64,000 nucleotides of DNA, taken from positions 5,084,001-5,148,000 of the forward strand of contig OZ316776.1 in NCBI GenBank assembly GCA_973851085.1, written 5' to 3'. The position numbers were made by a program, and so were the translations under genes. Below, one piece after another: positions 23,960 to 63,520 of this stretch. This stretch comes from Ptychomitrium polyphyllum. Taxonomy: Eukaryota. The notes beneath the pieces are model-generated. The model had not been told where the DNA came from and made no database searches. It saw nothing but the letters and a program-made list of their open reading frames with translations. Positions within the stretch are counted from its first letter, which is position 1. Each line of letters starts with the position of its first letter.

Positions 23960-25568
23960 ATGATCAATTTAAGCAACTCTATTGGATGTGTGGAATGTTC
24001 TGAAGGTTGAATGTCGGAGCCGATTGGACGGAGCACCATGAAATCATTGACTCGCAAACCGCAAGCACGCCACTCTTCTACAACGTAACGCAAGCGTCCA
24101 CCACCTTGGGCGTGAAGGTGCCCGATTCCGTGTTCTCGATTTCCTTGCACAAGGACGCCGTGCCTCTCACCACTCACCCGTTCCTCAAGTTGGATACTCT
24201 GGAGCTCTGCAAGGAGAATCCGGACGTGGTGCTGGTGAGGACCGGAAGCTCAAGCATGGTTGACTCGTCCAGCAACGAAGACGAGATGAATTCCACTGGG
24301 ATGTCGGTGGCGGTGCCGAGCTTGCTGGATCGTACTCTGAGCTTGGACGACGTGAATTTGTGCGTGGAGGCGGATAGCCCACGAGGGCCGTTGTCGCCTG
24401 CGGCTCTCCAGCTCGGGAAGTCGCCCAGGCCGACGGGTATCAAGCGTCAGTTTGACGATCTTCAGGCCGCACCTGGCGTTGGGTACACGCCCTTTGTGGC
24501 CATGGCGAGCTCGCCGACGTTCTTGCCAGCGAGTGCCAATGTTGGGGTCACTGCAGCGCCTGGGATCATGTTTCCGGCTTCGCTGACGCTTCCGAATGTG
24601 CCGAGTCTGGAAGAGATTGCGCAATCGCGGCCGAAGCGGCGCAATGTAAGAATCTCCAAGGACCCGCAGAGCGTGGCGGCAAGGCACCGGCGCGAGAGGA
24701 TCAGTGATCGCGTGCGCGTCTTGCAGCACTTTGTGCCCGGCGGAACGAAAATGGACACGGCGTCCATGCTTGACGAAGCCATCCAATATGTCAAGTTTTT
24801 ACAGCACCAACTCCAGGTCTGGTTTTACAATCTTAACTCCCTTCGTCGAATATCGTCGAGTGTTTCATCATCGCACAGACTTGCAATTCACCTATAGTTT
24901 TCCAACATTTCCCTGTAATTCTTGTTTGAAGTACGGAACTCGTGATCTGCATCTAGTACTTTCTCTTAATTCCAATCTCTTGTCCTCACTTCATATCACT
25001 TCATATCCAAGAGCTCATGATAGGCCATGCAAATTTTTACGAAGTGAGGACCAGAATATGACTTCATTTCTTGGAAGTTTGCTAACCAAATCCTTACCAC
25101 TCGTACGAAGGTTTTGTGAAGGAAAATAAGGAGGTGATATACGTAGAGACAGGTTGAACGTAGCCTTGGTGCAAATTTGAATACTTCTCAGAACTCGTGA
25201 GGTTCGCCCTTGATTGTGGGTCACGCAGAGACAGTTAGAGAATATCCTTGGTCGATTCTTCTCAGGCTTATCGCCTAATTATTGGAAGCTCGCATCCAAA
25301 GCTCATCGTTGTACGGAATTTTGTTATGTGTTTCAGACATTGGAGCGGCTAGGAAACGCCTATGTCGCAAGGAGGTCCCGTGATGATGTCCCATGTTGGA
25401 AATAACGGGCGCTCATTCGACCTAAACTGCGCAGTGAACCAATCCTACCCGTCCACGTCCATGATTCAAGCCACTTCGCCTGCATCGCAACCTCAACCTA
25501 CATGGCCGACCACGAGGTTCTGCAGCCAGAGCTTCCCGGACTCCGCCCAGGAGCAGTTTTGTCACTAG
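23960..25568 (+). CDS. HECATE/INDEHISCENT-like bHLH transcription factor (subfamily VIIIb-type); start and C-terminus uncertain
   Basis: [59 protein letters not shown]. Intron 24817-25336 (CAG|GT..TTTCAG|) continues to TLERLG. First in-frame ATG is 24256; ATG 23960 needs a frameshift at ~24007. The C-terminal frame ending QEQFCH* (25568) needs a shift at ~25361 or acceptor 25353. Confidence 0.88.
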
Positions 25569-26912: not shown

Positions 26913-29754
26913 TCACGAGAACGCCACATCAGGCTTCGTTCGTTTGTAAGTCAAATTGTCTCTGAAGTTATTGGATATTGGTAGAAATGACAACGGCAGC
27001 TCGTCATTACTTGTTATGTAGGAACTGAGCGGAAAATTGGTCCACGCTTCTGGCCCCTTCCGTTTTACCAACACTTGATCGGCATATCGAGCAGCCTGTT
27101 CAGGGGTGTCTGGAACCATATCCGGCAAACAGTGAGTCATTCCTAGCATATATCTTGTTATAAATGTTCTAGGAGCAAGCTTTGAGGTGCCAATATATAA
27201 AAGAACTCGTCGCTCAGAACTTACCGAAGGTGGTCAGAAATGTTCGTTTAGGTTTGCCTGTCTTTGCATTGCTGGAACTAACGGGGTCATCGCTCACGGT
27301 GGAGAAATATCTTGTGCCTTTCTTCTTCCCTGACCATCGCCTGAAACCGAAGTAAGATGCTATTGAGTGTGCATTATGTAGCCAACTCAGTGCACTGTTT
27401 AAGATCAATTTTGAATCCCTTAAGGTAGACAGGAGTGAGAAACTTAGTAGGCATTCTCACCGGCCAACATGTTTGTAGTTCACAGCACCGTCCTTCAATA
27501 ACCCTCTCCCCCTGCTCACCACTTTGCAGATTTGTCTGAGTTGGTTAAAAAGATGACAAAGACATGCAAAACAATGAGATCCTAGTCAAAGGTTTATTGC
27601 TCTGCTGGAATAGCAAAACCTGCCTGAGCCTTAATTCGCAGACGAGGTCAACATGATGCTTGCCTTCCCATCGTTTCAATTCGTCAATATACCTGTCGGC
27701 CTGTTTTATCAAGCCCAAGTAGTTCTCAATATATTTCGACTTTCTTGAACAATACATCCTAGAGGAATCGTCGGGAAAATCCAGATGGAAGAGATTCCGG
27801 ACGGTGAGTTCAAAACAACGTCAGTGCACGCTCAGCCATATCCACACTGAGTTTTAAGGATCTCGAGTGAAGTACAAAACTTGAACAACATATTCTCTGG
27901 GAAGGTTCGACTTGAGAAAAGCTAATAATATTGGGATGTCATTCTTACTGTGTAGGGAAAAATTATCTGAGCATCTTCTCCTTCATGCAATAATGCTACT
28001 AGGTTATACGCATCAATTGCTTCCTCATGTGTTGCATACTCCCCTGCACATAAATCACCAAGCAATGTTTAGAGTTTCAGTACAAAGTGTACCACGTAGA
28101 AGATTGTCATTCGTCCATCTGTAACTCAGAAAGGATGCTTTTATCACTAAACCAGAATTATTAGTCGAGAAAATTGACTGCATAGTATCTCATTTCACCT
28201 CTACAACAAAGCGTTTCTGACTGGAATTCTGTAACCAGAGCTTCAATTGAATGGTAACACCGAACCTAGACAATTTATTGGGTACCTAGGAAGACAGAAC
28301 TGTCATCTTCTGTCCAATATGAAGGTCTGTAGTAAGCCGTAAAGCGCTCCTCAGACCCATCGTATCGCCTACACAAGCATTAAATCGAGTTGCAACTAGG
28401 TTATTGGATGGAAAGGAAGACAACGTCGGACAATTTCTACATGTGACTGCAAATCCCCGATAAGTCAAGATTTGATTAAAATTCATTTTAGAATTATTAT
28501 ATGTTCGTCAATATAATTTCTCTGCAATGAAATTGTCTCAGCAAAACCCCTCCAAAGCGAACCAAAGCATTATAATTGCACCTACATTGCAACGCCATTG
28601 TGGTCCACAACCAACTTCTCTCTCCCTCGCTTCTGGCATATCTGGCTGCCCTGCTGCAGCTCTGACTGTTTCGAAGTTGTTGGAATTTCCTCAGGTTGTT
28701 CAATCAGCATAACAGAAGGTCCCAATTCTGCAGCAGCTTCGTTAAGAAAATTCTCATTATAATATTCACTCTTTGCTTCCTGGAGCACCGGTTGGTACTC
28801 CAGCATGAGTTCCTGCACAGCTAGATTAAGTTCTTCTGTTTCATGCTTCACGCTATAGCCGATAATATCCAAGTCCTGAGCAGGAGCCAAGGCAGGCTGA
28901 TATCCCTGTTCATGATCTGTTCTGTAGTTCAGGTTAATTCCCAAATTCACCTCAGGACCACCATATGCTCTACTGGCATTGACATCCTCACTAGAAGTAT
29001 ACGTGCAATCCGGACAAGCTTCTCCCTCGCCATGTAGCCATGTATCTGGGCAATATTGCTGGCAGAATGCATGATCTTCCCCTGTGTAAATCCCTTCAAC
29101 TTCGTGAGATGCAGAGATTGGATATGAATCCATTGAGTCTGGAAAGCTTTGGAAGAATTGGCCTGTTCTCGACCTAGCCTCGTTTGTTGTGCTCTCGTAA
29201 GCATTCTCGATATCCAAACGAGGTGCAGAATTAGCTGAATATGTGTTCAGAGGGTCCGTAAATGTTTGAAATTGGTCCAGTTCTGGTGAATCCAAGCCAG
29301 GTGCAGATTCACCAAAATATGCCGCCACTGGGTCGACAGGGATCAGACTCTGGAATTCGTTCTTTACGGCTGGATCTTGGTAAAGATAATTGTTGAGACA
29401 AGATTCTAGCCCGTTCTGGTTTCCGTCATGTATCTGAACCTCACTATCCCACGATTCCCAAAATTTGTCAACTGTAACCAACAAATTCTTAGGATTTATT
29501 TTTTCAAGACTAATTTCAGATTCAAGGGAAGTCATTAATTCCAAGCCCTGATCATTATCAGCCTGAAAATCCCCTGCTGTAACTGATGGACCGTCAATGG
29601 TCGGCTTCGAGGACGTAAGCTCTGCAGAATTTGCATCTTCCATCAGGTTGGCGCCCTCCCATGAAGCCAGATTTCGATACAAATCATCGAGTATGGCGTC
29701 ATTGTCGAGAAAAGAAGGAAGTGGCCCAGAGAAGAGGATCCCCTCGCAGTCCAT
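26913..29754 (-). CDS. Highly divergent double-AP2-domain protein (AP2 subfamily, ANT/WRI-like exon structure), ~603 aa
   Basis: Exons 29754-28586, 28368-28286, 28043-27949, 27700-27624, 27535-27461, 27340-27225 and 27109-26913 total 1812 nt in one open frame. Repeat 1: HNGVAMRYDGSEERFTAYY...VFLGEYATHEEAIDAYNLVALLHEGEDAQIIFP. Linker: YIDELKRWEGKHHVDLVCELRLR. Repeat 2: NYKHVGRRWSG...TFLTTFDTPEQAARYADQVLVKRKGPEAWTNFPLSSY. The acceptor at 27700 is the least certain junction. Confidence 0.82.
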
Positions 29755-34101: not shown

Positions 34102-34287
34102 AAGAACCTTCCCGTCTCGCAAGCATCACTCACATGTGAGCTTGGATTCTCGCTGCCGTGGGAATAATCTCTTCAGGCTCAGCAATCGACTGTTAATTCT
34201 GCAGAGCAAGTCAGGTTGCAGAGCTCGTGCATAGCTTGTGAGGTGCCAGGCAGGGGGGGCCCCCCGAAGGAGGAGGAGGTTGTGGCG

Positions 34288-35247
34288 ATGGGGCGTAACC
34301 GCTATTCGAAGAAGGGCGGGTCGTCGCAGCACCTGCAGCGGACCGTATTCTGGGAGGACGGCAAGGAACAGCAGAGCTTGCCGTCGTCGACGACACCTCC
34401 GCCCGGCGAGTGCAGCGACCGAGGCGCGCCCAAGCACCTGGCGGTGCATCTGGCCATGTGGGACTTCGGCCAATGCGACTCCAAACGGTGCACTGGGCGG
34501 AAGCTGTCGCGCCTCGGCTATCTGCGGGAGCTTCGCGTGCAGCAGCGCTTTGGAGGAGTGGTGATGAGCCCCGTGGGGAAGAAGTGCGTCTCTCGTGAGG
34601 ATCAGGCTTTGATTCGTGAGAGGGGGCTGGCTGTTGTGGACTGCTCGTGGAAGGGATTGGCTGAGGTTCCTTTTGCACAGCTGCGGTGTGGCGCTGCCAG
34701 GCTTCTCCCGTGGTTAGTGGCTGCCAATCCTGTGAATTATGGGAAGCCGTGTAAGCTTACTTGTGTGGAGGCCTTGGCGGCTGCGTTGATTATTTGTGGG
34801 GAGAATGAAGTGGCTGAGCAGATTCTGGGGAATTTTAAGTGGGGGCACTCGTTTCTGTCTTTGAACAAGAATTTGTTGGATGCGTATGCAGCGTGCAACG
34901 ACGGCGCTGAAGTGATCGTAGTGCAGAATGAGTTTCTTGATTCTGCTGGGAAGCATACGGAGGGGCCTCTTAGAAATTATGATAACGAAGATGGGTCAGA
35001 TGATGACTTGCCTCCTCTTGAACGGAATACTAACCATCTCGACGAGGACGAGGATTCGGCTGGAGATGAAGATGAAGATGAAGAGGAGGACGAAGAAGAT
35101 GCGAATGTTTCAGACGAAAAGGATGATGGCTTAGTAGATACGAAAACTAGTGTAAAGGTAGATGGTTCTGTACAGAAAGGAATCGATGTCTCTGATCATG
35201 AGCGTGGGCTTGAGAGTTTGTTGAAGCAGAGTCGCTTGAGTGAGTGA
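34288..35247 (+). CDS. TSR3: 18S rRNA aminocarboxypropyltransferase TSR3, single-exon CDS, 319 aa
   Basis: LAMWDFGQCDSKRCTGRKL, LAVVDCSW, RLLPWLVAANPVNYGKPCKLTCVEALAAAL, FKWGHSFLSLN, acidic C-terminal tail. Confidence 0.95.
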   Translation: MGRNRYSKKGGSSQHLQRTVFWEDGKEQQSLPSSTTPPPGECSDRGAPKHLAVHLAMWDFGQCDSKRCTGRKLSRLGYLRELRVQQRFGGVVMSPVGKKCVSREDQALIRERGLAVVDCSWKGLAEVPFAQLRCGAARLLPWLVAANPVNYGKPCKLTCVEALAAALIICGENEVAEQILGNFKWGHSFLSLNKNLLDAYAACNDGAEVIVVQNEFLDSAGKHTEGPLRNYDNEDGSDDDLPPLERNTNHLDEDEDSAGDEDEDEEEDEEDANVSDEKDDGLVDTKTSVKVDGSVQKGIDVSDHERGLESLLKQSRLSE

Positions 35248-37925: not shown

Positions 37926-40383
37926 ATGTCTTCTGCTCAAAAGCTTGAGTACTCCTTGACGGCCTCCGAGTTCTGTTCTTTTTTCAACCCTCCGAGCACT
38001 CGAGGACGAGTTTCTCCAATGTTCAATGAGCTGTCGACGCACAGGTTTGTGTATATTGACACGCCAAAACCCAATTTTCTGGATAGGCTCAATGAAGCAA
38101 TTGAGGCTTGATGAGTGTTGATTTTCTGCCAAGAAGTTACCAAACATTCATAGGGATGACACATTTATTTTTTTAATTTTGCTAGTAAATCGGTTAGGTA
38201 GATTAGACGATGATGCAATTTCTGTTATAAAACTGCATTTTGATTGCTTCAGGATAATTCTTTTTGAGCACTGCTCAGTTCAAGTTCATGTTGTCACATG
38301 GTTTTTCTTTACTGTGATTTCTCCAGCTCTCCTTGGAATCTTACGATTGACACGACTTTGGATGACTGCGAATCTCATGATGATGGCTGTACATATTCTT
38401 CAACATCAACTTTGTGTGCCGCTCTTGGTTTATCAACCCCAAATTCTCCGAGATCTCCTACATCGCCTTCGTTCAAATCCTTTTCACCTGATTCTCCACG
38501 ATATGGCCTAAACGGTACTTGTGTAAAACCTGTTAAATTATAAGTCAATGTGAGATCTGATTTATTGCTTCAACATATGAACCAACGAGTTAAACAAAGT
38601 TCAACAACACAAACTTGATTTTATCTTAGCTATCGCCAGGAATTTGCACTTTTCTGTTGTTGATATCAATGTACACGCAATATGACAGGGTTTGGAAGTG
38701 GAAGCCGCTGGTATGCACAGACCTATCCAGCAGCGGATGTGCCTGAACCAAGTGTGGAGTTCATTGAAATCGGAAAAGGCCCGACTGTTTTCGTCTGGGA
38801 CTTGGACGAAACCCTCATAATCTTTCAAACACTCTTAGACGGGCGATATGTGGAGCTGTTTGACGGTTTCAAGGACAATCATAAGGCGACTCTCCTCGGC
38901 CGGCGCTGGGAACGTCTTATCTTGGAAGTGTGTGATGATTACTTCTTCTATAACCATGTAAGTGGTGGTTATTTTCTTGAAAAATCGAGTCTGGGGGTTA
39001 GCATGATTATGAACCAGCTTCAATGTATCTCAGAAAAGTGTTTGTTAGAGAACATCATAGAAAATCGTTATACTGTAATCGCAAGCCTTGTGCTTATCAT
39101 GTAGAATCTTATTTGAATGTCAAGCAGAGTGAATTTTCTGATGAAGCCCTGGGGTTGATTCAGGTGGAAGAATACAATTATTCTAACGTGAATTCATTGC
39201 AAGAATATGATGATGGGGCTAACCTTAGCGACTTCAGATTTGAAGACATCTTAAAGCCACCATTAAATGCTGATAATCTGCGAAACTTAAGATACTTGCA
39301 TCGATATATCAGCCAAATTTATGAGCAGGTTAATATTCTTGTCAATCATCTCTGATTGTCTCAGACGATTGTCCCATCCATTCTCCTCAATTATCTCCTC
39401 AAGGCTTGCTGTGCTGATTCGAAAGAATCACGTCTTGCACTATCTCAAACTGAAGTGTTTCTACGATCATCAGAACTTGAGTATTCGTGAAGTAATCTGC
39501 GAAATTGGTTGCGTAGAACGTTGCAGCTTACATCTTCCTTATGTGGGTTGCAATTTTGAAGGACCTGGAGACTCTTCTAAGTCCTGAACAAGCGAAGGAA
39601 TGGCGTGACCTTTATGAAGCAACTGATATGTTTACTGATGGCTGGCTTTCTGCAGGTGATCCTTACAAAAGATCTTGTTAAATTTTGCTCAGAAAAGCAA
39701 GTTATTTTCAATTGAAAGTGCTGATTTCACACTGAGATGTTTTGGATGTTGGACTCTATCAGGAAGGCAGAAACTGGAGGAACTTCAGAAGGTGAATGAG
39801 CAGGCGTTACAAGATGAGTTTCCAGAAACAACCTTGAGTGATAAAAGCGGCAAAAGCCCTTCAGCCCCAAACTCGTACAATTTCCTCGTCACTTCTGGCA
39901 CTCTCATTCCAAGTCTTGTAAAGTGTTTGCTTTTCAAGCTCAACCCCTTCTTCAGCGCCTCCAACAGTAAGACCACAGCTCTTGAACTCAAAATTCTTAA
40001 CTCACTAATTGCCTATGCATTTAACAAAAATTCAGTGGAGTCGATGTATGACAATTACTGAGGATTACCACAATTTGACGCAATATTGAGTTGGTGATGC
40101 AGTTTTCAGCTCACGAGAGGTTGGAAAATTGCAATGTTGTCGATGGATTCGTGACCGTTTCTTACACGGCGAAAAGCTTCGAAAGTTTTGCTCCATAGGC
40201 GATGGGCCTGATGAGAGAGAGGCTGCTCGAGTGCTTGCTTGGCCCTTTGTGAACATCAGCTGTGATCCAGATGCTCCCGATCAGTTACCTCTGCTATCAT
40301 ACGCAAGAGTTAAAGCGCACATGCAAGCTGTGTATAAAGATAATGCAGACATTTCCAAGGAACGCAACCATGTAATAAATTAA
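37926..40383 (+). CDS. EYA: EYES ABSENT homolog (HAD-family protein phosphatase), ~439 aa
   Basis: Exons 37926-38044, 38327-38514, 38689-38957, 39164-39328, 39562-39655, 39763-39966 and 40103-40383 total 1320 nt in frame, all GT-AG. Motifs VFVWDLDETLIIFQ, TDGWL, LVTSGTLIPSLVKCLLF, FSSREVGKLQC, IGDGPDE. The first two exons are less certain. Confidence 0.92.
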
Positions 40384-41417: not shown

Positions 41418-43939
41418 TCAAGGCAAAGCGTTCACGTCCGGGCGAAACGAAATGGGCACCAGTGAGCGCACATCCTTGATGGAGAGCCTGCACTTCTTCC
41501 CGAACGTGATCGGTGAGCGCCGTTCGCTCCACGTTCCGTGTGCAACATCGTACGACACAACGCAGCCCTGCGCGGTGTCGCTCACCACGACGATATGCTC
41601 TCCACCCACGACGCTGCACACGCCCCACGAGCGGACGCGACGATGGAGCTCCTCCGGCATGGACGCCAGGAGCTCCCAGCGGCGCGACACGACGTTGAGC
41701 GCGTAGAAGCAGCCAACGGGGCCGTCGTCGTCCACGGGCGCCACCGCCATGATCGTCCTCCTCCCGCACACAAGTGGCGTCTGGCGCGCGCTCTCGTCTG
41801 GGAGATGCGAGGCCACCTCGGACCACACCCCGTGCTGGACGTTGTAGGCAACGAGCGCGTCGGTGCCCACCAGCATGTCGCCCGCTTGAATGTACGCCTT
41901 CTGCGCGGTGCACAAGAGAATTCCGTTCTCGAGCGCGGCGTCCTGGGTGTCGAGGTAGAGGTCCGCGGGTAAGCTCCCCGTGATGGTCCATTTGTTGCTG
42001 TCCGAGTCGTAGACCTCGGTGGCTTGAGGTTTACTCGCAGAGTACGCTTCTGTGCCCGCGAGGATGATCTTGTAGGAGGCGTCGTCGTTTGTGATTATGT
42101 GCAACACGTCGGGGCGCGACCATTTTTGGTTCGTAGGCGGCAATTCGCGGCGCTGGCCCGTCACTGGGTTGCAGACGAAGGTCGAATTGGGTTTGTAAAC
42201 CACAAGCAAGCCGCCTGCGCCTGTTACCACGCTCTTGCCAGGCGAGAGGGGCAGCGGTAGTTGCGGCAAGGGGTGCCATTTGTTGGTGGCGATGGAGAAG
42301 CCGGACCAGTGGAGGGCGCCGCTCTCGGTCTGGCTGTAGCGGACGGGGCAATAGGTGGACCAGGGCGTGGCGCTCGCGGTGGATCGTGTGAGGCGGAGGT
42401 GGGAGCTTTGGGCAATGTTGCGCCATTGCTTGCACACAGTCGTACAGCGGAAGAGGTTCGGGAAGGGGAGGAAAGCCAGAATATGCTCGTGAATCTCGAC
42501 TGGCAGGTCCTTCCAAATCATCGGGTCGAGGTTGCCGTCGCGCATCCACGCAGGTGACTTCTGGCTCGCAATCGTCCCCGTTGCCGCCACCTCAGACCTG
42601 CAAGTCGAAAGTCTAGAAACCAATAAAGTTAACTAGAATAATCACCGGCGGCGTTACCCAAGCTCCCGAATTGAAATTCTTTGCAAGAAGAAAACCAAAA
42701 CAAGACTCAACCTATTGCGCGAATGAACGTCGACCGAAACAGGTTCTATACTATTCATAAAACTCGTTCGCAACTAAGCAAAGTCTTGAGTTACTACGTC
42801 TTGTTTCATAACGACTGAAAGTGATGAAGCGTGGCAAGCTATACATCAAAGACTACCATCTCACCCTCGAATTTATAAACTCCAATTTCTTGATTCCGCT
42901 GCTGCAGCAAGGTAGCACTGCCTAAGGGCGGAAGGTGGACGTTTCTGATAACAAAGCAAAGATAGGCGCGGACACATACACGTTAGACTGGTAAGTACTG
43001 GGACTAAAGGCGCAACGCAACGAAAGTTGAATGCAATCAAGAGCCACGCTAATACGCTCCTACCAGAAACAGAAAACAAAGAGTAACACCCCTCTTTCTT
43101 TCTTTCTACCTCTCTGCATGCACTATGGGGCTGTGCTTGGAGGTTCTTGCAAAACTGCGAAAGAACATCAACAGTGTGATAAGCCATTGCGTGGCTCGCT
43201 AATCTCAAACCTCCTTTTCGAGAGAACGGTGCCTTACACTCTGGGTTCAGAGTACAAATGCTGCACCAAGAGAAGTACCTAACACACGATTAGACAGAGA
43301 GGCAGGGTACAGAATCTGAAAACGAATCCGTCACACCCAAGAAACGGTACGTCCAAAAGAAATACTCAATTATCCTGACACTCCTTAGGAGCACAATCTG
43401 CACAACGTAGCACCGTGCGTCGCTCCACACATCGCCACAAAGATCAACTCGACTCAACTCTTTCGAAAACAACAATCGAAGAAGGTATAAAATTTCGAGT
43501 CAAGAAAACATCATCAGCAGTACAAACTCAATGCCTCACTCGAACCAAAAAAGCCCAAATGAGCAAACCGATCATCTTACGTGTCAAAAACTGGTATCTT
43601 CCGAGGGTCTGGAAATGCACACAAACCCGCTACAGACCTCTCTTCCACGCTCAACAAACCTATAAGGGGCCAATACCCGAGTCTCCCGACTATTGAAACA
43701 CGACAGAGTCGATCAAAAACGCTCATGAAAGAGAATGCTTTAATCCCAGAAAAATGCTCGCGAACTCACACACAGGAAGGAGACGACGCCCCGGCACTAG
43801 AGCGTGAGCATTGCTTGAGGCACCAGAGCTTGAAGGCCTTGAGAGGCGCAGCTTCGGTGGAATTCGCATGCCGCTGATTGTGCTGCTTGCCAGCCTTCAC
43901 AGTGGTAGTGATGGTGGTGAAGCTTGCCCTCCTGCCCAT
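41418..43939 (-). CDS. F-box protein with kelch-like/beta-propeller C-terminus, ~449 aa
   Basis: F-box LDPMIWKDLPVEIHEHILAFLPFPNLFRCTTVCKQW, plus FVCNPVTGQRRELP and TEVYDSDSNKWTITG. Proposed exon 1 43939-43770 (GT|GTGAGT, phase 2) joins exon 2 42597-41418 in frame (1350 nt). Alternative start at ATG 42545. Confidence 0.88.
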
Positions 43940-59949: not shown

Positions 59950-62900
59950 TCTAATCTTTTGCTATTTGGTAGTTACCAACCATAACATGAGCATAATAGG
60001 CTAACTAGAATTAGTCGATTCTTAGAGATTAGGCATTACTTATTGTCTAATTTAAAATTGTGCAATTATCTTGGAATTTATTAGCGAAATTTAGAATTAT
60101 CCATGATATTTGTACTTTTCTATGAATAAACTTCACTATAGAGATTTACCAGTGTTTTATAGATTGTAAAAATCTTTTGCCTACAATGGTGTAAATTTTT
60201 TAAATAAGATTAATTTACAATCATGCTACCATCAAATTCAATTGAAATCTGACAATGTATATAAAATTGCATGCCAAACTGAATATACTTTTTGTTTTGA
60301 TTGAATTGCTTGCTACATTCATGACTTTAATGAACCACATTTTACAACCATATTTGAATTAATTTTTTTGTAGTATATTTAGATAATATTCTTATCTATA
60401 ATCAAAGTATAGCCAATTACTTGGAGCATTTAAGAATAATTCTTTAAGATCTTGTGGAAAATAAGTTATATGCCAAAATGAATAAATGTTAGTTTTTAAA
60501 ATTGAAAATTGCCTTTCTAGGTCATATACTAGGTTCTTTAGGCATAAAAGTGGATTCAAAAAAAAATTCAAGCAATTCAAACATGGAAAGAACATTTATA
60601 AACCGAAATGTTTTTTGAACCAAGCTAATGAATATCAAGAATATAAATACCATTTTAATTATTAAGTTTTATCATTGATTCATTTCTTTAAGAAAAAAGT
60701 CAAATTTAATTAGACATTGAATTGTCAAATTGCCTTAAATCCATGCTCCAATATTTTTATAATTGTAGATCTAAACTTATCTTTTAAAATTCATATTAAT
60801 ACTTCAATAGATGCAATAGATGTAAATTTATTAAAAAAAAGTAAATCTATTACTTATGAATCAAAAAAATTAAATAATATTGAAAAAATAATCTATAAAT
60901 TATTAATTATAAATTAGAGTTATATGCTATTGTTCATGCTTTAAAGACTTAGCAATATTATTTGGATGAACAATATATTGCTTAACTCACTAATAATTTT
61001 AGCCTTAAATTGTTTGATTCATAACCAAATTTGTTTATTTAACAAGCAAGATGGCAATGATTCTTTGCTCAATTTCATTATGATTTGCAATACCAAAAAA
61101 GATGGAAGAATGTGGTGGTTGATATTATAAAGATTATTTGTGTATTTAAAAGGATGGTAATTTTTGCATGTTACTCCCTTGTGAAGATCATTTAGTTTCA
61201 TTAAAAAGACATTTTGGTGTTATTAAGTATTATGCATCTTTGAAATGCAATTATTTTTGGCCAAATATGTTGAGTGATGTAAAAAACTTTATTAAATCTT
61301 GCTTAGCTTGTCAACAAAAAATAAAAATAAAAATGAAGCTCGCAATTTTATTACAACCCTTTTCCAATTCCTAAAGAAACTTTTCCATGAGTATGGATTT
61401 TATCATGGATTTGTCACAAAATGAAGGTCATTTTAATGCAATGATTGTTGATGTGAATTGTCTTAGTAAATAAGCATATTCTATTCCAACTCATTCCAAA
61501 ATAAATGCCCTTGGCTTGGCAAAAATTATTTCATACAAAAAATATATTGTCACCATGGATTTCCATGCAATGTTATAAGTGATAGAGATATTTATTTTAC
61601 AAGCAATTTTTGGCAATTTCACTTTCAAATAGTGGGTACACAATTCAATATGAGTACCGCCTTCCATCCTCAATAAGATGGTCAAACCAGAGTATTATAA
61701 CCACCAGAATATTAAAAGATATATTAAGTGCATTTTTTGCCATCAATTAGAAAAATTGGAATGTGTAAAATTAGCTTTTAATATTCAATTGTAGAGGAAC
61801 AACCAAAAGCTAATATTAAAAAATTTGATTGCTAGAGAGGCAATTATAAATAAAAATACCACAACTATTGTCATGTATTTATTTTGCAAAAGACAAAAAG
61901 ACCATAATTTATTAATAATTCAATAATTTGAAGTATATTTTTTACATATTAAAGTAGTTCATAGAACTGTCTATAAATTGATCAATCTTATTATTGTAGC
62001 ATACTACAACAATATCAACTATCATATCAAAATATCAGTAAAACATTCTCTTCCAGAATCTTCTCCCAATTCAATTATTGTGAATTTTTTCTATCACTTT
62101 TTAGTATAATATTTAAATCCTTTCTTGGAATACTCAACAATAATAAGTAGTGAACCTTCAAATTCCTTTACGCAATTAGTCACTTTTATAATAATATAGT
62201 TTTTTTTAGTTCATCATTCAATTACTTCCAAACTTCAATTTTCATTCTTTTGCTTCCAATTTTTAACAAGTCATCACCTTAATAATAGTTGATAATAATC
62301 TCTCAATTCACTCACACTTTAAACATTCAAAATTTATTCACTTTTCTTCAAAAATTCCATACAATCAACAACAACATGATATACTAATAAACAAACACTT
62401 TTTATTCTGAATTTACCATATACACTTTATAAGGTGGAGACAAACTTCACTTGTCTGTTATTTTTTTTTCTTCTCTTCCTCTTCTATTATATTCCTTGAA
62501 CCAATACAATGATCCAATACTATTGTAACCACTTATCAATTGTATGTGTCAAAAGACACACTATTTCTATTAATATTTTCAACATTGAAACAACACTATA
62601 GTCTTGAAAGTCACTTTACATACTACTATAGTCTATCTAATAAATTAATTAGTCATTTGTACCCTTTCAAAGCCGTTACCTACTAAAACTAAGAAATACA
62701 TAAAAAATACACTAATTCTACATGTTGATTGTCTTCTTACAATGAAAGTTGTTTACAATTATATAGTCAATTCTACTACATAAAAGATTCCATTTGAGAT
62801 AATATATAGTAAGCATATTTTGATTCCATCAACTTTTTATAATTTAAACTTAAATATCTAGCTGCATTAGCTTTTCATAATAAATGGCAATGCAATTTAG

Positions 62901-63520
62901 TATTTATTATAGAAGTTTTAATCAAGGCTCAAGCACATAAGACCAAATATGCCAATGCACATAGAAGACATGTAAAATACAATGAAGGTTACAAAGTTCT
63001 TCTTCGCACTAAGAATTTGAAATATACTTTAATAATTTCAACAAAAGTTGTTCATAAGTTTGTGGGCCCTCTTACAATTTACAAGCATATTGGCTATGCA
63101 GCTTATGTTCTTCAATTTCTTTCTAAGATGAAATTCACATTATATTTCATGTGAATATTTTTAAGCCATATATTAAATTGGTAGATCTTTTGACAATTGA
63201 TTGGCCTAATTCTATTGAATATTTAGAAGGTGATAACATCTTTGTGAGGTTGAATTAATTTTTAACTACTATAAACATTGTTATAGTAAAAGAAATTGTG
63301 TAGATATGGAAAGATTATCCTATTGTTGAAGTCACTTAGGAACCTCTTAAAAAATTAACATATCATGATTTAATACTATAAAACTTTTGCACTTGTTTTA
63401 ATACGGTTTAACAAGGACAAGTAAACTTTTTTAAAAGAAAGGAAAATGTCATGAAACCAATTTAGACTACTTACCTAAAGCAAGACTTATTACATTAAAT
63501 ACTAATAGTAATAACCTTTA
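59950..63520 (+). mobile_element. Degenerate Ty3/gypsy chromovirus pol remnant with PPT and 3' LTR start
   Basis: RT YLDNILIY ~60375-60400. Integrase HFGVIK..NYFWPNM..DVKNFIKSC.ACQ (61168-61374), SMDFI.DL and FHPQ.DGQT (~61660). Chromodomain-like W.DYP.VE.T.EP ~63305-63345. PPT AAAAGAAAGGAAAA 63433-63446 followed by TG at 63447. Interrupted by unrelated sequence at ~61720-62840. Confidence 0.8.

What the first reader, a model, noticed from the sequence alone, without database searches (positions are those of the whole stretch)
26913..29754. Cryptic intact gene for a radically diverged double-AP2-domain protein
Seen: seven exons join into one uninterrupted 603-codon frame, although the ORF track shows only disconnected pieces. 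Established: AP2-subfamily factors (AINTEGUMENTA/PLETHORA/WRINKLED, moss APB) carry two AP2 repeats with strongly conserved YRGV, WxGRYEAHLWD / GRWQARIG, YLG and AARAYD motifs. Here the helix and scaffold residues survive (FLG.Y...EEA..AY.L.AL..G..A...FP; TPEQAA...D...K.KG..A.TNFP..Y), and the intron phases (2,1,0,2,2,1) fit the ANT-type layout as I recall it. The beta-sheet DNA-contact residues are largely replaced (HNGV, YKHV, no RAYD), and repeat 2 has an insertion. Inference: an intact frame despite this divergence suggests a lineage-specific, neofunctionalised AP2 protein with altered or lost DNA specificity.
Basis: partly seen in the sequence, partly recalled or inferred. Interest (0 to 1): 0.88.

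Follow-up and report, generated by a model that had tools for sequence, protein, structure and literature searches.

The report
Rewired double-AP2 protein of mosses
A seven-exon gene with close relatives in other mosses encodes a distant relative of the WRINKLED/AINTEGUMENTA transcription factors whose DNA-reading residues are replaced by new, strongly conserved ones, so it likely no longer reads the family's DNA motif and likely works as a partner-dependent gene regulator.

Summary
Seven minus-strand exons (29754-26913) join into an open 603-codon frame, provided intron 4 is GC-AG; a 595-codon form (acceptor 27511) matches the spliced Ceratodon ortholog, 188 of 209 residues identical over the AP2 region. 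The region is double-AP2 derived: the ortholog hits WRI1 by sequence (E 3e-8) and a profile of canonical double-AP2 proteins gives 80 bits (200 shuffles: at most 9.5), yet Pfam AP2 misses it. New here: (1) the replaced beta-sheet residues are the most conserved part (31 of 34 identical to Physcomitrium, against 17 of 31 for the helix); (2) repeat 1's sheet is acidic (-3; 40 of 40 canonical ones positive) while repeat 2's is more basic with a 13-residue insert; (3) three relatives carry a C3HC4-type RING in exon 1, of which this copy keeps only the second half; (4) the GC donor looks conserved. Best reading (inferred, untested): a nuclear co-regulator whose repeat 1 binds a protein and repeat 2 binds DNA with new specificity. 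Relatives are already in databases as partial hypothetical proteins; no paper on them was found. No expression data. A new variant of a known family; interest 0.5.

The parts
28586..29754 (-). Exon 1 (1169 nt): start codon, acidic low-complexity N-terminal region (aa 1-375: 15 K+R, 67 D+E), RING remnant, basic patch, start of AP2 repeat 1
   Evidence: the same start and the same 3' end in relatives P0001, P0002, P0024
29005..29073 (-). Second half of a C3HC4-type RING finger (aa 228-250); the first three Cys ligands are missing in this copy
   Evidence: Pfam zf-C3HC4 positions 18-40 of 40, E 0.28; whole pattern in P0001, P0002, P0024
28615..28632 (-). Basic patch KRGREK (aa 375-380), likely nuclear localisation signal (inferred)
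   Evidence: K-R conserved in all 6 rows of alignment A2; coordinates
28286..28368 (-). Exon 2 (83 nt): remodelled, acidic beta-sheet of AP2 repeat 1, ending in VFL (the VYL micro-exon motif, here at the 3' end of exon 2)
   Evidence: same arrangement reported for AtWRI4 (PMC6681275)
27949..28043 (-). Exon 3 (95 nt): helix of AP2 repeat 1
27624..27700 (-). Exon 4 (77 nt): two linker helices as in WRI1
   Evidence: conserved in P0006, P0013, P0021
27512..27623 (-). Intron 4, GC-AG, 112 nt to the shared acceptor (88 nt to the alternative acceptor at 27535); retention meets a stop after 26 codons
   Evidence: read-through residue in 5 of 5 relatives fits a GC donor
27461..27511 (-). Exon 5 (51 nt with the shared acceptor; 75 nt from 27535): end of linker and start of repeat 2 (YKHV)
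27225..27340 (-). Exon 6 (116 nt): basic beta-sheet of AP2 repeat 2 with a 13-residue insertion
   Evidence: sheet 42 residues against 29
26913..27109 (-). Exon 7 (197 nt): helix of repeat 2, TNFP, conserved C-terminal tail (28 of 29 identical to Ceratodon), stop

Best explanation
This is an intact moss gene for a double-AP2 protein related to WRINKLED1/AINTEGUMENTA that likely works in the nucleus as a partner-dependent transcriptional co-regulator, with repeat 1 likely turned into a protein-binding surface and repeat 2 likely still holding DNA with a new or loose specificity. Shown: the exon path and open frame; orthologs in Ceratodon and Physcomitrium; kinship with WRI1 across both repeats and the linker; loss of most WRI1 DNA contacts; an acidic repeat-1 sheet and a basic, lengthened repeat-2 sheet; strong conservation of the new sheet residues. 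Predicted: the WRI1-like fold. Inferred: origin by duplication of an ANT-lineage gene, a burst of change followed by purifying selection, nuclear import through the basic patch, activation through the acidic N-terminal region, and the roles given to each repeat. A RING finger sits in exon 1 of some relatives; this copy keeps only half of it and is predicted to have no ligase activity of its own.
For: Spliced Ceratodon ortholog 188 of 209 identical in the AP2 region against 46 of 76 just upstream and 20 of 36 for the translated intron 4 as a rough neutral baseline. WRI1 (7wq5) is the top PDB sequence hit, E 2.9e-8. Profile from 57 canonical double-AP2 proteins: 80.0 bits for the 595-aa form, best of 200 shuffles 9.5. 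Atlas top three clusters are AP2 clusters, 0.91-0.92. Model with alignment: pLDDT 72.5; Foldseek WRI1 E 1.1e-10; VIA-align Z 14.6, rmsd 3.1, 153 aligned. In one alignment 1 of 7 base-reading, 3 of 20 other DNA-contact and 7 of 20 structural WRI1 positions match the canonical consensus (positions from PMC9401623). Repeat-1 sheet net charge -3 in all three mosses, +1 to +9 in 40 of 40 canonical proteins; repeat-2 sheet +9 against +4 to +7. Repeat-1 sheet 31 of 34 identical to Physcomitrium, helix 17 of 31; repeat-2 strands 26 of 26 identical to Ceratodon. Family stem about 10 changes per column, tips 0.05-0.62. Precedent for an ANT-lineage protein that takes its DNA preference from a partner: AtSMOS1-SCL28 (PMC8964727).
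Against: No experiment on any member. The fold model was built with 53 canonical AP2 rows, so its likeness to WRI1 is partly imposed; the single-sequence model was poor (pLDDT 39.4) and residues 1-15 (first strands of repeat 1) stay under pLDDT 50. The profile came from hits to the ortholog, so it is not a blind test. Alignment register inside both sheets is ambiguous (differ), so residue-level mapping is firm only next to anchors. The free tree put the family beside algal proteins, not in the ANT lineage; that the ANT placement is not rejected (p-AU 0.35) does not show it. Both Physcomitrium models end two residues into intron 4, and no Physcomitrium repeat 2 was seen, so it may be lost or just unannotated there. 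The roles of the two repeats rest on charge and conservation alone.
Confidence: 0.5

Rival explanations
1. It is still a stand-alone sequence-specific transcription factor that uses both remodelled sheets to read a new DNA motif.
For: Both sheets are under strong conservation; linker and domain spacing of WRI1 are kept; repeat 1 still has three basic and several aromatic residues; acidic N-terminal region and basic patch fit a transcription factor.
Against: Repeat-1 sheet is net acidic, outside the range of 40 of 40 canonical proteins; anchored contacts R67, K94, Q98, Y100 of WRI1 map to N, E, S, F; Q98A alone lowers WRI1 binding about 10-fold (PMC9401623).
Confidence: 0.17
2. The family's main role is a RING E3 ubiquitin ligase whose AP2-derived part picks the substrate or chromatin site; this copy is a ligase-dead member.
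For: P0002 passes Pfam cut-offs for zf-C3HC4 and zf-RING_5; P0001 and P0024 carry the full ligand pattern with small deviations; all end at the same exon-1 donor motif; P0002 and the exon-3/4 fragment P0021 are each on one Logan contig of 7610 bases, probably the same one (with 11, 32; inference).
Against: The window copy lacks three ligands and the Physcomitrium model has no RING pattern, while the AP2 region is equally conserved in both, so its function does not depend on the RING; P0001 and P0024 score below cut-off; no full-length RING+AP2 protein was found (a weak test).
Confidence: 0.13
3. It has lost nucleic-acid binding altogether and is a pure protein adaptor or decoy, for example titrating partners of APB/WRI/SMOS1 proteins.
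For: The W[EQ]ARIG strand that holds R183 is absent and R183A abolishes WRI1 binding; helix and linker, which SMOS1-type partners could use, are kept.
Against: Repeat 2 is more basic than any of 40 canonical repeats, and its strands are invariant between the window and Ceratodon; a decoy would be expected to keep the old partner surface rather than fix a new one (inference).
Confidence: 0.15
4. It is a decaying gene or an artefact of choosing splice sites.
For: Needs a GC donor; half of the RING is gone; database models of relatives are all partial.
Against: 90% identity to an independently annotated spliced ortholog, same stop position; conservation far above the intron baseline.
Confidence: 0.03

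Closest known systems
WRINKLED1 and the basalANT lineage (AtWRI1, PDB 7wq5)
   Same: Two AP2 repeats with a two-helix linker; best sequence and fold match; matching intron sites at several positions; VYL-like motif at the end of exon 2 as in AtWRI4.
   Different: At most 1 of 7 base-reading residues kept; YRGV replaced in both repeats; repeat-1 sheet 34 residues and acidic (37 and basic in ANT-lineage proteins); 13-residue insert in repeat 2; long acidic N-terminus with a RING remnant.
euANT / moss APB1-4 (AINTEGUMENTA, PLETHORA)
   Same: Long pre-domain region, double AP2, same exon pattern in the domain region.
   Different: None of the euANT1-4 motifs listed in PMC6361745 is seen in the translation (read by eye).
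SMOS1 / AtSMOS1 / PpSMOS1-like (basalANT)
   Same: ANT-lineage protein acting with a partner (SCL28) that sets DNA preference (PMC8964727); functional model for this protein.
   Different: SMOS1 keeps a canonical repeat 1 and has an imperfect repeat 2 (recalled, no call); here both sheets are replaced and repeat 1 is the acidic one. No SMOS1 sequence was compared by name.
Database entries of the same family: Ceratodon M758_2G090800, KC19_2G078500; Physcomitrium XP_073396543.1
   Same: Orthologs by identity and exon path; UniRef already labels the KC19 entries 'AP2/ERF domain-containing protein'.
   Different: All are partial or intron-retaining models, named hypothetical or uncharacterized; none includes the RING region together with both repeats.
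Moss-specific ERF clade (PpERF24)
   Same: Moss-restricted AP2/ERF proteins with altered YRG/RAYD signatures (PMC9520294).
   Different: Single-repeat ERFs that keep recognisable motifs; not this family.

Membership tests
AP2 subfamily (double AP2) | Two AP2-fold repeats joined by the conserved linker | tested here: met
   (model aided by canonical rows)
AP2 subfamily (double AP2) | Pfam AP2 (PF00847) at its cut-off | tested here: not met
   no hit for P0003, P0005, P0009 or window pieces; only P0008 at 16.3 bits, cut-off 33.3
AP2 subfamily (double AP2) | YRG and RAYD elements; WRI1-type base-reading residues | tested here: not met
   1 of 7 in the MAFFT register, register uncertain
AP2 subfamily (double AP2) | Sequence-specific DNA binding | not testable with these tools
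   needs DAP-seq or EMSA
ANT lineage | 10-residue insertion in repeat 1 | tested here: inconclusive
   sheet 34 residues: 7 more than the 27-residue type, 3 fewer than ANT-lineage 37
ANT lineage | Shared intron positions and phases | tested here: met
   VYLG phase 1 (PMC8831610); 51-nt exon and flanking sites read from mis-spliced canonical proteins P0091, P0027, P0050; the site after NFP is recalled only
ANT lineage | Groups with ANT proteins in a tree | tested here: inconclusive
   very long branch, falls by algal rows; ANT placement not rejected, p-AU 0.35
euANT (APB/PLT/ANT) | euANT1-4 motifs | tested here: not met
   motifs, translation
RING-type (C3HC4) E3 ligase | Eight zinc ligands in cross-brace spacing | tested here: not met
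   window copy has only the second half; met in relative P0002
RING-type (C3HC4) E3 ligase | Ubiquitin transfer activity | not testable with these tools
   needs an assay

The most novel reading that the evidence does not exclude
Mosses hide a family in which a WRI/ANT-type transcription factor was converted into a new recognition module (an acidic, DNA-mimic-like repeat 1 beside a basic repeat 2) and fused to a RING finger, giving a transcription-factor-derived ubiquitin ligase that targets chromatin-bound regulators, with a conserved GC-AG intron switching between one-repeat and two-repeat forms.
Probability: 0.12. Interest if true: 0.8.

Novelty: new variant of a known kind. Interest (0 to 1): 0.5.

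Why it matters
Surveys of moss ANT-lineage genes name four APB and two SMOS1-like genes in Physcomitrium (PMC6361745, passages); a member that Pfam misses and gene models truncate at a GC-AG intron would be left out of such counts. It is a clean natural case of a DNA-binding domain whose reading surface was rebuilt and then frozen, testable at once in Physcomitrium or Ceratodon by knockout, DAP-seq and pull-down. If the RING is ancestral and active in relatives, it would be an AP2-RING fusion that the searches here did not find described.

Tried and rejected
No whole genome is held for the window, so paralogs and synteny could not be checked. No RNA holder listed; two contig runs of one sample were laid, no joints, one covers the stretch whole and may be its source, the other has a hole over the gene that proves nothing. 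Two scans of metagenome contigs found no confirmed locus (129 and 89 pattern matches, 0 confirmed), so no ortholog DNA and no dN/dS. No full-length relative among proteins of 505-2000 residues (weak test). Single-sequence fold was uninformative. The wide VIA-align search was not run. The tree cannot place the family; a second AU test (basalANT only) got no answer and was not repeated. One 9-nt AG..GT stretch in intron 2 is not VYL-like and is absent from the spliced ortholog: rejected as a micro-exon. P0038 is a low-complexity repeat hit, rejected as a relative. The exon-2 row of alignment A1 was in the wrong frame and was ignored. Atlas hits for the RING region are all under 0.9 and name no source family. 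No complex prediction was run: no partner is known. Three look-ups of earlier findings returned nothing. A search for printed exon sizes of AP2 genes found nothing relevant.

Full report
Observation. The region was read on both strands. Candidate donors and acceptors were listed and five exon paths translated. Intron 4 must begin with GC (27623). Three GT-donor alternatives for exon 4 broke the frame; a second GC donor gave 601 aa. Exons are richer in G+C than introns.

Orthologs confirm the path. A search with exon 1 gave 3 hits of 2704 candidates, among them Ceratodon purpureus KAG0625951.1 (P0003, partial, 288 aa). It is spliced like the window gene and is identical at 188 of 209 aligned positions over the AP2 region and tail, against 46 of 76 just upstream. 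It lacks the eight codons between 27535 and 27512, so the acceptor shared with Ceratodon is 27511, giving a 51-nt exon 5 and 595 aa. The intron-retaining Ceratodon model P0005 has Asn where the window's upstream AG lies in an Arg codon, so Ceratodon probably lacks that AG (inference). The upstream AG has the better pyrimidine tract in the window (12 against 6 of 17 bases), so this species may use either; both keep the frame. Further relatives: Ceratodon KC19_2G078500 (UniRef name 'AP2/ERF domain-containing protein') and Physcomitrium patens XP_073396543.1. A full HMMER search gave 103 hits; 11 have 56% identity or more and are pieces of this family, the other 92 have 29-47%, mostly canonical AP2 proteins by motif. 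The only named organisms are these two mosses; the remaining members are unnamed fragments, so the family's range is not established.

It is double-AP2 derived. Pfam finds no AP2 in the window pieces or in P0003, P0005, P0009; only the C-terminal fragment P0008 scores 16.3 bits, under the cut-off of 33.3. But P0003 hits WRI1 (7wq5) at E 2.9e-8 across helix 1, linker and repeat 2. A profile built from 57 of 99 search hits with two YRGV-type motifs scores the 595-aa form 80.0 bits and the 603-aa form 76.7; of 200 shuffles 37 were reported, best 9.5 (the training set came from hits to the ortholog). The Atlas's three best clusters are AP2 clusters (0.91-0.92). A single-sequence model failed (pLDDT 39.4); with a 55-row alignment it reached 72.5 and matched WRI1 (Foldseek E 1.1e-10; Z 14.6, rmsd 3.1, 153 aligned). 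That model leans on canonical rows, and its first 15 residues are below pLDDT 50.

Gene structure. The phase-1 boundary after VYLG is in print (PMC8831610, passages; PMC3724841, passages; PMC7714060, passages), and AtWRI4 has VYL at the 3' end of exon 2, as here (PMC6681275, passages). Mis-spliced canonical proteins among the 28 rows printed mark other sites: P0091 lacks exactly the 17 residues between LRR and HHH (a 51-nt exon, equal to window exon 5 with acceptor 27511); P0027 leaves the family sequence after GVAR and returns at DTQEE (window introns 5 and 6); P0050 starts to match at HRW (intron 1; one case only). The site after NFP, and the canonical sizes 83/9/89/74/51/77 nt, are recalled and recomputed from WRI1 numbering; the window has 83/-/95/77/51/116. 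The tree (36 rows: 33 of the 57 canonical, 3 family) joins the family at 100/100 on a stem of about 10 changes per column with tips of 0.05-0.62, beside algal rows; this is probably long-branch attraction, and placement in the ANT lineage is not rejected (p-AU 0.35) but not shown.

The DNA face is replaced and then conserved. With the contacts of the WRI1-DNA crystal (PMC9401623, parts 1-3 of 6 read) mapped through WRI-like surrogate rows, 1 of 7 base-reading, 3 of 20 other DNA-contact and 7 of 20 structural positions match the canonical consensus. The register within the sheets differs; firm are R67 to N, K94 to E, Q98 to S, Y100 to F, R169 to K, Y194 to F, Y208 to A, and the absence of the W[EQ]ARIG strand, whose R183 is essential in WRI1. 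Repeat 1's sheet has net charge -3 in the window, Ceratodon and Physcomitrium; it is +1 to +9 in 40 of 40 canonical proteins parsed (of 57). Repeat 2's sheet is +9 against +4 to +7 and is 13 residues longer. Identity to Physcomitrium is 31 of 34 in the repeat-1 sheet, 17 of 31 in its helix and 21 of 26 in the linker; identity to Ceratodon is 26 of 26 in the repeat-2 strands and 28 of 29 in the tail, while translated intron 4 gives 20 of 36 as a rough neutral baseline. The new surface, not the old scaffold, is what selection holds most tightly; this is the main argument for a new binding function rather than decay (inference).

Exon-1 products of three unnamed relatives end at the same donor motif and carry a C3HC4-type pattern: P0002 passes Pfam cut-offs (25.3 and 29.1 bits); P0001 and P0024 are below cut-off with small ligand deviations. 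The window copy keeps only the second half (aa 228-250; Pfam positions 18-40, E 0.28; alignment) and the Physcomitrium model P0010 has none. The Ceratodon models do not reach this region. P0002 and the exon-3/4 fragment P0021 each lie on one 7610-base Logan contig, probably the same. So RING plus AP2-derived repeats likely occur in one protein in some mosses, but the AP2 part is conserved without it.

GC-AG intron 4. In 5 of 5 relatives that read into this intron the next residue is Q or H, which fits AG/GC and not AG/GT (inference from codons). Ceratodon has both a spliced and an in-frame retained model; in the window retention meets a stop after 26 codons; both Physcomitrium models stop two residues in. 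This explains the truncated annotations and could be a regulated switch; untested.

Mechanism. Shown: gene model, orthology, AP2 kinship, loss of WRI1 contacts, charge asymmetry, conservation pattern. Inferred: a nuclear co-regulator in which acidic repeat 1 binds a partner, basic repeat 2 holds DNA with new or loose specificity, and the acidic N-terminus (15 K+R, 67 D+E in 375 residues) activates; AtSMOS1 with SCL28 is a precedent for partner-set specificity in this lineage (PMC8964727, passages). Confidence 0.5; rivals are a two-repeat factor with a new motif (0.17), a pure adaptor (0.15), a RING ligase family (0.13) and decay (0.03).

Novelty. Searches of the paper library: gene identifiers (20 of 25 listed, none about mosses), AP2 with Physcomitrium and divergence (20 of 62 listed), preANT/basalANT/euANT, SMOS1, AP2 with RING and moss-specific (one paper, on ERFs, passages), atypical AP2 with Ceratodon (two NLR papers). 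None of the listings or passages seen describes this family. PMC6361745 (passages) names four APB and two SMOS1-like genes in Physcomitrium. Limits: subscription papers are missing, the Physcomitrium Pp3c identifier was not known, and supplementary transcription-factor or expression tables, which were not read, may list it. Verdict: real gene, new variant of a known family, already present in databases as partial hypothetical proteins; interest 0.5.

Noticed in passing
window 24004-24897 (+), further exons likely to about 25800: bHLH gene (Pfam HLH above cut-off), convergent with the AP2-derived gene.
   Followed up: partly
window 3537-5116 (-): Ankyrin-repeat exon followed by exons that look like an RMT2/PRMT2-type methyltransferase (name recalled; two later exons had no Pfam hit).
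   Followed up: partly
window 34168-35247 (+): TSR3-like ribosome biogenesis gene (Ribo_biogen_C and Fer4_RLI).
   Followed up: partly
window 38664-40061 (+): Exons resembling an Eyes-absent-like phosphatase (WDLDET motif; name recalled; no Pfam hit on single exons).
   Followed up: partly
window 41418-42632 (-): Single-exon F-box/kelch gene.
   Followed up: partly
window 62843-63154 (+): Retrotransposon remnant, Tf2-1-like SH3, below cut-off, in an A+T-rich stretch.
   Followed up: partly
window 29212-29256 and 29290-29334: 45-nt direct repeat 78 nt apart (71% identity): an old 26-codon duplication in exon 1, in a stretch that P0024 shares and P0001 lacks.
   Followed up: no
protein P0008 (Ceratodon KC19_VG000500 and KC19_6G225800): An identical 122-aa repeat-2-only copy is annotated at two further Ceratodon loci, one with a 'VG' tag on a 110-Mb contig, likely the V sex chromosome; duplicate or assembly artefact.
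   Followed up: no
window 2211-2807 (-) and 2301-2609 (+): Short DNPES repeats on one strand over a fragment resembling an NmrA-like oxidoreductase on the other (name recalled; no Pfam hit).
   Followed up: no
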